From contig NC_092356.1 of the NCBI RefSeq assembly GCF_963676685.1, positions 60,822,001-60,886,000 on the forward strand: a DNA stretch of 64,000 bases, given 5' to 3'. Below are positions 1,599-21,017 of the stretch, piece by piece. The stretch is from Mytilus edulis. Its lineage: Eukaryota. Position 1 is the stretch's first letter, and each line of letters opens with the position of its first letter. Position numbers and translations under genes: made by a program. The notes below the pieces were generated by a model. The model made no database searches, was not told where the DNA came from, and was given only the letters and a program-made list of their open reading frames with translations.

Positions 1599-4500
1599 CT
1601 GATCCCGATTGTACTTTACTGGAGGAAGGTCCTCCTGTAATTATAATAATAATAAGTAAGGAAAATGTTGCGTTATAAATTAGAGATCTTTAATTCAGGG
1701 TCATTATACGTAAAAGTGCACAACGTATTATATGAGTCTATATATATAAAGAAACGACATCATGATATCTCTATTTGTAGTGTACCTTTATTTCACAGTC
1801 ACCTATATCCAAACATAAGGACTTAAACGATTAATTTTTAAGAAATTCAAAAGAGGAAACAAAATGCTACAGAAATATCATAGTAGGAAATATTTCATTT
1901 TGGTTGTTGTAAAAGTTATAATATTGGTGATTAGATACGGGTGATAAGAAATGGAGAACAAAAATGTCGAAGAGAGACCGACAAAATCAAAGCAAATAAC
2001 GAAAAACGACGAAAAGACAAGAAAGCAGTCTAAAAAAATCCATAAAATTAGTACCAAGGGATGAGCAACACGAACTTTTAAATATTTTACTTTGAGCGTT
2101 TCTGGTGACATAAATCCAGAAAAATACATAAACTTTATAACTTGTTCTTTTCATTTTTCACAGCACTAGGCTGATAACTCTGTTAGTGGACTAACAGCTT
2201 AGAAGTTAGTACTTTGATATGAAGATGATTCGAAACAACACCTTGCTAAAAAAAAAAAGTGTTTGTAAATTTTGAAATAACAAAGAAACTGAGGCTTTAT
2301 ACAATGAATAAGCAGACTTTTGTTTCGTAAAACTTTGCAATTGTGTTTAGTGTTTTTTTTAGATAAAACATCGTTTACATTTTATCATACATGTGACAAT
2401 ATCACAAACAAGCAAAAAGAAATATTGGACAAGAACATCTTTAAATAGCAACCAATGACAAGAAGAGAACAAGACATAGTTTGCCGATCAAAACTCAATA
2501 ACAGTTCTTAAAAGTTATTATTATCATTAAAAACCAACAGAAAGAATTTTTAAGGTGGTACCCAACACTTTCACTAAAATTAATTTGGCTCGTTTAATTT
2601 TCATAAAATTTTGTCAAAGTATTTACTTTGAGACTTTAATAAAAATATAAAAATTTTAAAATTTTTGAACCAACCGTTTTGTCAGAAAAAATACACTGGT
2701 TATATAGCAATTTGACAAACACCAATTTTGATCATTGAGAAGCTTAATATTCCTTTTACAACAAAACGTAATTAAAACGTTTAGTTGACTTTACAGAGTT
2801 ATCTCCCTGTAGTGTTAGGTACCACCTTAAGTAAGAAAATGTAAATGTTTTAATTAATTATGAATATTAATTATATTCTCACACCTACCTGAGCCAGATT
2901 GTATATTATTGGAGGTAGAGCCTGTAAATATAACATAATAGAAATATATGTTGTATAATTTTTATTTATTTTAAGTGAGGGTACATTATAAATGCAAATG
3001 CACTATGCAATGTTTGAATCTCGTAATTTCATTTAAGAGAAATGACACTTCTAAATGTTCAAAAGTAAACTAACAAAAATAACGAATTCAAAATTCAAAA
3101 CGAAGAATCCTCATTCAAATGGCAACATAAAAGTATGTGTTTATTAAACTGTTTTGTATTCATCATTTGTCCATTCCAATATAATTATTTCTATAAATTC
3201 TGTGGTTCAAATGTTTTGAAATTTTGAAAACTTGTCAACAGGCCAAAGCACTTATTTTGCAAATTTTATGAAAATTAAACGAGCCAATTTAAAAGTGCTG
3301 GGTACGACCTTAAGATACGGTTATAAGCCTGGTACCTTTGACAACTATTAACTTACATTCTGGGTCTGCTTGGCATTGAATGCCTGGTGATGAACATACA
3401 TTACATCTAGCTTGTATAGATAACGATACCATACGTCTATTTGGTAAACCTGAGAAAAGGGGAAAAGTTCAGATTGACTTTGAATACCTGTAATGAACGT
3501 ACTTTACACTTCGTTTGTATAAAAAGAATTGAGAATGGAAATTGGGAATGTGTCTAATAGGCAACAACCCGACCAAAGAGTAGAAAACGGCCGAAGGCCA
3601 CCAATCGGTCTTCAATACAGCGAGAAAATCTCGCACCTGGAGGCGTGCTTCAGCTGGCCTATAAACAAAAATGTGTACTAGTTCAGTGATTATGGACGTC
3701 ATACTAAACTTCGAAATATATAATATTGAACAAAAAATAAAAATTATACAAGACTAACAAAGGTCAGAGGCTCCTGACAAAGAAAACGATACTATGCGTC
3801 TATTTGGTAAGCCTTAGGAAAGAGGACAGTTCAGATTAACATTGAATACCTGTGATGAGCATACATTAAATCTAGCTTGAATAGATAAGGATACCATGCG
3901 TCTATTTGGTAAGCCTTAGGATAAAGGAAAGTTCAGATCAACATCGAATACCTGTGATGAGCATACATTACATCTAGCTTATATAGATAAGGATACCATG
4001 CGTCTTTGGGATAAAGGAAAGCAATTGGTTTGATTTTTAAAGCCCTTCTATTTCGAGCTGGTGCCATTATCAACCATTAATGATTGTCTTACTTAAAACA
4101 AATTAACATTTTTTTACACATAGTATTTCCAATAATTAATGAGAATAGAGCTGATTAGTTTAATATTATATCTGATCTTGAAATGTTGTTTTTTTTTCTT
4201 TATAGACAAAAGTGTTTATCCGTTTGCATTCATATTTCGGTTGTAGCTTATGTGCATGTCTCTAACTGTACCTGCGTCCATGCAGTTAAAATACAATTGC
4301 TTTTAAGACACACACTCAAATTATTTTTTTAAAAATACAAAACGTGGCATACTTACAAAATAAATCAATACATGCAGTATCATTGGTTTCGCAGAAGGAA
4401 CAAAAATTGTCTGCTAACTGGTTCACTTTTGATGTCAAAGTTCCTAATTGTGTTATAAGAATAAAGTGTAAATAGCATTTGTCATGTTTGTTTGTTGCAA

Positions 4501-21017: not shown

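What the first reader, a model, noticed from the sequence alone, without database searches (positions are those of the whole stretch)
1599..21017. Unusual architecture: pseudo-LPMO fused to Cys-rich modules, a mucin-like linker and tandem Ig domains
Seen: twelve exons chain in frame from the signal peptide through LPMO-like, W-C-x3-C-x6-C-P-x3-C-x-C module, DVETTTTTTPAPTTTP, Ig, Ig, 4-Cys repeats and a Ser/Gly stalk. All exons after exon 4 are phase 1-1, the signature of exon shuffling. I know AA15 fused to chitin-binding modules but not to Ig domains. Inference: a matrix adaptor or an Ig + glycan-binding receptor, conceptually like Ig/chitin-binding VCBPs or Ig/lectin FREP-type proteins but built from a dead enzyme.
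Basis: partly seen in the sequence, partly recalled or inferred. Interest (0 to 1): 0.75.

Follow-up and report, generated by a model that had tools for sequence, protein, structure and literature searches.

The report
Dead chitin enzyme with grafted Igs
This mussel gene is spliced into one message encoding a copy of a chitin-cutting copper enzyme that lacks its copper-binding histidines; oysters have the same protein without the two immunoglobulin domains that mussels carry, and it likely works as a secreted structural linker in a chitin-containing matrix rather than as an enzyme or immune receptor.

Summary
The gene is longer than reported: 19 coding exons, 846 aa, identical to M. edulis model XP_071144812.1. 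It has no predicted TM or GPI end, so it is likely secreted, not a receptor. Both histidine-brace residues of AA15 are lost (His1→Gly44, His91→Leu133), as is one of two substrate-face aromatics. New here: oyster and pearl-oyster orthologues have the same His-less domain, furin-type site, Cys modules and CxxC repeats in the same order, but no Ig. The Ig pair is therefore most parsimoniously a mussel-lineage insertion of phase-1 I-set exons, related to Mytilus tandem-Ig arrays, into an old pseudo-enzyme scaffold. The gene is single-copy and its Igs are conserved (85–93% across Mytilus), which argues against a VCBP/FREP-like immune role. Best reading: a non-catalytic adaptor in a chitin-containing matrix, probably furin-cleaved. 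Tissue, ligand and binding are untested. His-less AA15s and the Cys module are common; the Ig fusion was seen only in Mytilus.

The parts
20781..21017 (-). Coding exon 1: hydrophobic N-terminal segment (likely signal peptide, res 19-37) and start of the AA15-like domain
   Evidence: the cleavage site is inferred, no signal-peptide predictor was available
20886..20888 (-). Gly44 codon at the position of the catalytic His1 of AA15
   Evidence: alignment to TdAA15A 5MSZ; Gly in all 5 Mytilus rows of alignment A2 and in oyster P0177
14962..15328 (-). Exon 2: core of the AA15-like (Pfam LPMO_10) domain
   Evidence: E 9e-8; E 1e-37 to 5MSZ for res 45-231
15167..15169 (-). Leu133 codon at the position of the second brace histidine (His91 of TdAA15A)
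13908..14028 (-). Exon 3: end of the AA15-like domain (Trp205, axial Phe223 kept)
   Evidence: spliced to exon 4 in X1, X2, X5
10844..11088 (-). Exon 4 (phase 2-1): 4-Cys WWC module, furin-type site, first 6-Cys W-C-x3-C...C-P-x3-C-x-C module
10971..10982 (-). RLKR proprotein-convertase-type motif (res 278-281), the only R-x-K/R-R in the protein, at the same place in oyster and pearl-oyster orthologues
   Evidence: cleavage itself is inferred
10355..10405 (-). Exon 5: Thr/Pro linker
7741..8058 (-). Exon 6: Ig I-set domain 1, phase 1-1, absent from oyster and pearl-oyster orthologues
6687..7007 (-). Exon 7: Ig I-set domain 2, phase 1-1, about 50% identical to Ig1, absent from oyster and pearl-oyster orthologues
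5932..6030 (-). Exon 8: CxxC...C-x3/4-C repeat R1
4802..4828 (-). Exon 9: 27-nt spacer exon
   Evidence: matches P0013
4357..4443 (-). Exon 10: CxxC repeat R2
3357..3449 (-).
2889..2921 (-). Exon 12: Ser/Gly linker
1599..1634 (-). Exon 13: Ser/Gly linker; the gene continues for six exons beyond the window (second 6-Cys module, Thr linker, repeats R4-R6, stop)

Best explanation
The gene encodes one 846-aa protein whose AA15-type domain lacks both copper-binding histidines, and it likely acts as a secreted, non-catalytic adaptor in a chitin-containing extracellular matrix (shell or periostracum most likely, gastric shield possible). SHOWN: single spliced transcript across exons 3-6; loss of His1 and His91; no hydrophobic C-terminus; orthologues without Ig in oyster and pearl oyster; Igs related to Mytilus tandem-Ig arrays; single copy. 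INFERRED: secretion; no oxidative activity; cleavage at RLKR281 into a 28-kDa pseudo-LPMO half and a 61-kDa acidic half (pI 4.4). In the acidic half, two aromatic 6-Cys modules would grip polysaccharide, while the Ig pair and the helical CxxC repeats would bind matrix or cell-surface proteins. Also inferred: the Ig pair was inserted into a phase-1 intron in the mussel lineage and added a protein-binding surface to an older scaffold.
For: Junction-spanning contigs in 3 studies, with introns at depth 0 apart from repeats. The lengths of contigs X1 and X2 fit the full 2541-nt CDS plus UTRs. His1→Gly and His91→Leu against TdAA15A. By contrast, 10 of 12 own-genome paralogues whose first exon was found keep His1 and 16 of 18 keep the second His. 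The Ig-less orthologues P0033, P0177 and P0039 share module order and furin motif; P0177 has 54 Cys like P0013. They form one His-less clade on the exon-2 tree (SH-aLRT 96, quick tree, 125 columns). Identity of the dead domain is 167/189 to M. californianus and 82-93/189 to the two near-complete oyster and pearl-oyster orthologues, so it is maintained. The 6-Cys module follows the AA15 domain in 61 of 114 AA15-type representatives, at the position where CBMs usually sit, and carries a conserved aromatic 9 residues before the W-C motif (PMC5823890 passages). PF03067 proteins and Ig+chitin-binding proteins are recorded in mollusc shell proteomes (PMC3374290; PMC6231486 supplement rows; PMC5379566). 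The shell precursors Pif and BMSP are cleaved into two products.
Against: No direct link of this protein to shell or any tissue. Its peptides or accessions were found in no main text and in none of four supplements searched. The four PF03067 shell proteins listed in PMC6231486 differ in mass and pI (43-248 kDa, pI 5.6-9.7) from this clade (75-93 kDa full length, pI 5.0-5.6). The Tyr24-equivalent surface aromatic, present in 81 of 89 His1-bearing relatives, is Glu, Arg or Pro in this clade, which weakens chitin binding by the dead domain. The 6-Cys module has no Pfam match and no tested ligand. Both AlphaFold models were low confidence (pLDDT 44.6 and 50.1). Only two non-mussel genera carry a detected orthologue, so Ig gain in mussels is favoured by parsimony, not shown with an outgroup.
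Confidence: 0.5

Rival explanations
1. A gut or mucus glycoprotein: a secreted, O-glycosylated, glycan-binding component of the crystalline style, gastric shield or gill mucus that holds food polysaccharides or microbes, with the Igs serving as spacers.
For: Thr-rich linkers, longer in oysters (P0177 is auto-named mucin-5AC-like). Mucins dominate a bivalve style proteome and the gastric shield is chitinous (PMC8561940 passages). The transcript was not seen in raw-read run X21 (0 exon depth in about 6% of the run), which fits tissue restriction.
Against: No tissue data. The same paper reports very low AA15 expression in the shipworm digestive system, though in a different lineage. The Thr linkers in Mytilus are short (about 17 aa).
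Confidence: 0.2
2. A soluble innate-immune pattern-recognition protein in the manner of VCBP or FREP: glycan-binding modules recognise microbes and the Ig pair signals or opsonises.
For: Ig domains plus putative carbohydrate-binding modules in a secreted protein. The VCBP and FREP features are recalled, not from a call.
Against: Single copy in the genome (best other Ig 54-56% identical). Ig1 is 106/106 identical between M. edulis and M. galloprovincialis and 99/106 to M. californianus; Ig2 is 91/107. I-set scores above V-set. No CBM14 or fibrinogen domain. The orthologues work without Ig.
Confidence: 0.12
3. A precursor cut by convertases to release small disulfide-rich peptides (the 6-Cys modules and helical CxxC repeats) with signalling or antimicrobial action, the dead LPMO acting as a pro-domain.
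For: Conserved furin-type site. The modules have even Cys counts and look independently folded. The repeats are predicted as helical hairpins, at low confidence.
Against: Only one R-x-K/R-R site per protein, and no conserved basic sites between the repeats. The C-terminal half is acidic (pI 4.4), unlike most antimicrobial peptides (recalled).
Confidence: 0.08
4. The domain keeps a non-canonical metal or redox site built from other residues (His71, His178, His200, Glu221, Glu222).
For: His178, His200, Glu221 and Glu222 are conserved in all orthologues aligned and the axial Phe is kept in Mytilus.
Against: The brace needs an N-terminal His amine (PMC5823890 passages). His71 is not conserved in P0033. 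The Ala89 position is Lys, Glu, Gly or Ser and varies within Mytilus.
Confidence: 0.06
5. Two neighbouring genes or a prediction artefact: the transcript ends at RY* after exon 3 and the Ig exons belong elsewhere.
For: The M. trossulus annotation splits the locus into two models, but after Ig2, not after exon 3 (P0010, P0011). Runs X1, X2 and X5 are RNA by the tool's guess only.
Against: Three exact GT-AG joints on one contig in each of three studies, and zero depth past RY*. No intronless copy in the genome. The same fused model occurs in four Mytilus species.
Confidence: 0.02

Closest known systems
AA15 LPMOs (TdAA15A, PDB 5MSZ; PMC5823890)
   Same: Homologous domain (E 1e-37), conserved cysteines, axial aromatic, same exon-1/exon-2 layout as own-genome paralogues, C-terminal extensions common.
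   Different: His1, His91 and the Tyr24 surface aromatic are lost. The fusions reported in that paper's passages are CBM1, CBM14, GH18 and GH19; 'immunoglobulin' occurs 0 times.
Ig-less orthologues KAK3104716.1 (Pinctada imbricata) and XP_062609402.1 / XP_061196702.1 (Saccostrea), all uncharacterised
   Same: His-less AA15 domain, WWC module, furin-type site, 6-Cys modules, Thr linkers and CxxC repeats in the same order.
   Different: No Ig pair; one extra 6-Cys module and longer Thr linkers.
PF03067 ('chitin-binding 3') shell matrix proteins of Lottia, Crassostrea and Pinctada (PMC3374290, PMC6231486)
   Same: Same domain family, mostly with signal peptides and low-complexity Thr-rich regions, found in shell.
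   Different: Masses and pI do not match this clade. I could not check their His status or orthology, as sequences were not in the supplement text.
Pif / BMSP shell matrix precursors
   Same: Secreted modular precursor cleaved into two products, pairing chitin-binding modules with protein-interaction domains.
   Different: Built from VWA and CBM14, neither of which is present here.
VCBP (Ig-V + chitin-binding) and FREP (Ig + fibrinogen); features recalled
   Same: Ig domains joined to putative glycan-binding modules in a secreted protein.
   Different: I-set type, single copy, conserved, no CBM14 or fibrinogen domain; Ig absent from orthologues.
Mytilus hemicentin-like and adhesion-GPCR tandem-Ig proteins (P0046, P0045, P0168; arrays on G000:C5)
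   Same: Closest relatives of both Ig domains (up to 50-56% identity; one group at SH-aLRT 98), encoded as single exons with phase-1 acceptors.
   Different: They carry many Igs and no LPMO-like domain; P0046 continues into HRM and GAIN domains.

Membership tests
AA15 LPMO (active) | Sequence homology to the AA15 catalytic domain | tested here: met
   phmmer to 5MSZ E 1e-37 over res 45-231; LPMO_10 above cut-off
AA15 LPMO (active) | N-terminal His1 exposed after signal cleavage | tested here: not met
   Gly44; the nearest His (39) follows Leu and is absent in the oyster orthologue
AA15 LPMO (active) | Second brace histidine (His91) | tested here: not met
   Leu133; His in 119 of 145 rows at that column
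AA15 LPMO (active) | Axial Tyr/Phe | tested here: met
   Phe223 aligns with Tyr184
AA15 LPMO (active) | Two aromatic residues flanking the flat substrate face (Tyr24, Tyr166) | tested here: not met
   Trp205 kept, Tyr24 position is Glu68; aromatic in 81 of 89 His1-bearing relatives
AA15 LPMO (active) | Copper binding and oxidative polysaccharide cleavage | not testable with these tools
   needs recombinant protein
Ig I-set domain | Profile match above cut-off with Cys, Trp and D-x-x-x-Y-x-C core | tested here: met
   I-set 34.6 and 46.8 bits against cut-off 23.7; Ig folds top the Foldseek list
VCBP (features recalled) | Two V-type Ig domains | tested here: not met
   V-set 19.4 bits (below cut-off 26) for Ig1 and 31.8 for Ig2, both below I-set
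VCBP (features recalled) | C-terminal CBM14 chitin-binding domain | tested here: not met
   no CBM_14 match at E<=0.1 in the orthologous full-length proteins
VCBP / FREP (features recalled) | Multigene, polymorphic or diversified Ig | tested here: not met
   single locus; Ig identity 85-100% across Mytilus; allelic variation not surveyed
FREP (features recalled) | C-terminal fibrinogen domain | tested here: not met
   no match
Cell-surface receptor | Transmembrane segment or GPI signal at the C-terminus | tested here: not met
   highest hydropathy window is res 19-37; the C-terminus is polar and Cys-rich; an uncleaved N-terminal anchor is not excluded
Molluscan shell matrix protein | Detected in a shell proteome or mantle-specific expression | tested here: inconclusive
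   no peptide or accession hit in the texts and four supplements searched; several proteome papers and supplements not held
Pif/BMSP family | VWA plus CBM14 domains | tested here: not met
Carbohydrate-binding module (6-Cys module) | Match to a described CBM family or fold, or shown binding | tested here: inconclusive
   no Pfam, Atlas or fold match, with a low-confidence model; a likeness to fungal CBM24 is recalled and untested

The most novel reading that the evidence does not exclude
This is the type member of an undescribed pteriomorph family of LPMO pseudo-enzymes, carrying two undescribed disulfide modules. In mussels, a captured Ig pair lets the furin-released C-terminal half dock chitin onto the tandem-Ig hemicentin-like or adhesion-GPCR proteins from which the Igs derive. 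That would be a mussel-specific bridge between chitin scaffold and cell surface, and a cleanly dated natural experiment in exon shuffling.
Probability: 0.2. Interest if true: 0.72.

Novelty: new variant of a known kind. Interest (0 to 1): 0.5.

Why it matters
AA15 LPMOs are studied as chitin-remodelling enzymes, and automatic annotation counts this gene as one. It is instead a long-conserved pseudo-enzyme, and several such His-less lineages exist in bivalves. The mussel and oyster orthologues differ by exactly two inserted Ig exons, which gives a rare before/after pair for testing what a shuffled domain adds to a secreted protein. The 6-Cys module, present in about half of the AA15 relatives sampled, and the CxxC repeat have no Pfam family and are testable candidates for new carbohydrate- or matrix-binding domains. 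Interest is tempered because lineage-specific domain mixing in bivalve secreted proteins is common and no function is shown.

Tried and rejected
No listed holder run was on record as RNA; X1, X2 and X5 were treated as transcript contigs only because of their spliced joints and empty introns. AlphaFold models from 9-row alignments were poor (pLDDT 44.6, 50.1). Fold searches of the C-terminal model gave nothing significant (Foldseek best E 3.5; VIA best Z 5.2), which is no evidence of a new fold. The ESM Atlas gave no usable hit for the repeats or the 6-Cys module. A search of metagenome contigs for Ig2 relatives in other mytilids found none, so the insertion cannot be dated within Mytilidae; P0073 is an unnamed exon-2 fragment basal to Mytilus with unknown Ig status. 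Literature searches found no paper on this gene or on an AA15-Ig fusion. One pearl-oyster shell proteome paper was not held and one supplement was unavailable, so unseen supplements may list the protein. The model fused to a P_proprotein domain (P0001) was set aside as a probable gene-prediction chimera, since the other full-length models end like P0013. My first idea that a 27-nt exon at 3383-3357 was used was replaced by the 93-nt exon. No complex prediction was run.

Full report
1. Observation. The gene lies on the minus strand. Pfam gives LPMO_10 for exon 2 and I-set/Ig_3 for exons 6 and 7; the five other exons scanned matched nothing at E<=1. The bin just past the RY* read-through had depth 0 in all four. 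The fourth run (X21, raw RNA-seq, about 6% read) had no exon coverage. No intronless copy of exons 6-7 appeared in the genome.

2. The whole gene. A search with exon 2 for longer proteins returned Mytilus models carrying LPMO_10 plus Ig. Their clusters hold M. edulis, M. galloprovincialis, M. californianus, M. coruscus and a split M. trossulus annotation. A 19-exon model over 44 kb translates exactly to XP_071144812.1 (P0013, 846 aa). It adds an exon at 3449-3357 and six exons beyond the window start. Contigs X1 and X2 extend 1376 and 1290 nt past exon 6, against 1202 nt of remaining CDS, which fits full-length messages (a length argument only). Module order: N-terminal hydrophobic segment, AA15-like domain (12 Cys), 4-Cys WWC module, RLKR, 6-Cys module, Thr linker, Ig, Ig, three CxxC...C repeats, Ser/Gly linker, second 6-Cys module, Thr linker, three more repeats (one with only two Cys), stop. 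The only strong hydrophobic window is res 19-37 and the C-terminus is polar, so the protein is likely secreted and is not a type I or GPI receptor.

3. The dead active site. Against TdAA15A (5MSZ, E 1e-37), His1 is Gly44, His91 is Leu133 and axial Tyr184 is Phe223 (residue roles from PMC5823890 passages). Of the two substrate-face aromatics, Trp205 remains. The Tyr24 position, aromatic in 81 of 89 His1-bearing relatives, is Glu. As a control, the genome holds at least 19 LPMO_10 loci. Of the 18 paralogues fetched, 10 of the 12 whose first exon was found keep His1 (six first exons lay outside the fetched stretches) and 16 of 18 keep the second His. Two other paralogues (L020, L023) also lack His1. 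On the exon-2 tree, 26 of 145 rows lack the second His and need about 10 changes; a few of the 26 are alignment shifts, and eight redundant Mytilus rows were dropped beforehand. Loss of the brace is thus recurrent and not special to this gene.

4. Origin of the architecture. Among the best 150 of 2816 representatives, 114 carry the AA15 core motif, 61 of these the 6-Cys module, and only the Mytilus protein an Ig motif. Pfam found no Ig in 20 further long AA15 proteins. Three proteins share the repeats: P0033 (Pinctada imbricata), P0039 (Saccostrea echinata, partial) and P0177 (S. cucullata). They align module by module, lack both histidines where the model covers them, keep a single R-x-R-R at the same place, and pass directly from the Thr linker to repeat R1 with no Ig. 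They group with Mytilus at SH-aLRT 96 (quick tree, 125 columns), and P0177 hits five exons of this locus when searched back. Both Igs fall in one group (SH-aLRT 98, quick tree) with a subtype of Ig exons from tandem-Ig arrays on C5 and with P0046, an Ig-HRM-GAIN adhesion-GPCR-type fragment; those exons have phase-1 acceptors. One gain in the mussel lineage is the simplest history. Gain earlier plus loss in oysters needs two events, but no outgroup orthologue was found and no donor test was run. That mussels and oysters split in the Palaeozoic is recalled, not computed.

5. Constraint and copy number. Against M. californianus the AA15-like domain is 167/189 identical, Ig1 99/106, Ig2 91/107 and repeats R1-R4 90-100%. 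The best other Ig in the genome is 54-56% identical. This is the pattern of a single conserved structural gene, not of a diversified immune family.

6. Likely working. I commit to a secreted, non-catalytic adaptor in a chitin-containing matrix (0.5). Cleavage at RLKR would give a 28.5-kDa half and a 60.7-kDa half of pI 4.4, each with an even Cys count, so the dead LPMO and the Igs may not stay covalently linked. Polysaccharide contact is more plausibly made by the aromatic 6-Cys modules than by the eroded LPMO face. The support is circumstantial: PF03067 proteins in limpet, oyster and pearl-oyster shells (PMC3374290 passages; PMC6231486 supplement rows), LPMO_10 among shell-protein domains in mantle transcripts (PMC11464482 passage), Ig and chitin-binding domains together in shell proteins (PMC5379566 and PMC6003135 passages), and cleaved precursors Pif and BMSP. 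Against it, the listed PF03067 shell proteins do not match this clade in mass or pI, and no peptide or accession of this protein turned up. Structure prediction was uninformative beyond confirming Ig folds and suggesting helical hairpins for the repeats. An earlier AI note on another His-less AA15 gene in this genome reached a similar matrix-protein reading; it is not independent evidence.

7. Papers seen. Passages only: PMC5823890, PMC10154629, PMC3374290, PMC11464482, PMC8194122, PMC5379566, PMC6003135, PMC6359903, PMC8561940. Passages plus supplement term searches: PMC6231486, PMC4660305. Supplement term search only: PMC4517812, PMC7747718. VCBP, FREP and CBM24 features are recalled. Ten library searches showed no description of this gene or of an AA15-Ig fusion; subscription journals and many supplements were not searchable.

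8. Verdict. Real and transcribed. The protein works most likely as a matrix adaptor; it belongs to the AA15 sequence family but is not an active LPMO, VCBP or FREP by the features tested. It is a new variant of a known kind: a bivalve pseudo-LPMO with a mussel-only Ig insertion and two unnamed disulfide modules. Interest 0.5.

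Noticed in passing
L020 (G000:C3:30589500-30599499) and L023 (G000:C11:11487000-11496999): Two further AA15 paralogues without His1 (Lys, Arg) and without a His at the second brace column; each falls in its own His-less clade with other bivalve proteins.
   Followed up: partly
window 3750-4035: Three degenerate tandem copies (102-nt spacing) of the 93-nt exon 11 in the preceding intron; partial copies of the last exon also lie about 3 kb and 15 kb downstream of the stop.
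   Followed up: partly
window 24083-27319 (-): 1079-aa open frame with six C2H2 zinc-finger motifs.
   Followed up: no
window 43702-50152 (+): Exons of a protein kinase (weak Pkinase match) that looks like PINK1; the name is recalled.
   Followed up: no
window 54193-55881 (-): Single 563-aa ORF with a B-box at the N-terminus and a weak beta-propeller-type (SGL) match near the C-terminus, TRIM-like.
   Followed up: no
window 58538-64000 (+): Open 1820-aa BEL/Pao LTR retrotransposon frame (peptidase A17, RT, integrase zinc finger) running off the window end.
   Followed up: no
window 36329-37009 (+): Fragment of a non-LTR-type reverse transcriptase.
   Followed up: no
window 17088-18888: 1.8-kb element in intron 1 bounded by 31-nt inverted repeats (90% complementary) and containing a 51-nt tandem array; probably a non-autonomous DNA transposon.
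   Followed up: partly
G000:C5:27640001-27700000 (L033-L038): Array of about 50 single-exon Ig domains in 60 kb, the nearest relatives of this gene's Igs.
   Followed up: partly
P0040 (unnamed ENA protein, 1459 aa): About 20 tandem copies of the 6-Cys module with no LPMO domain and no Pfam match; a good seed for defining the module as a family.
   Followed up: no
P0159: An AA15 protein with intact histidines and a weak Laminin_G_3 (ConA-like) match below the family cut-off.
   Followed up: no
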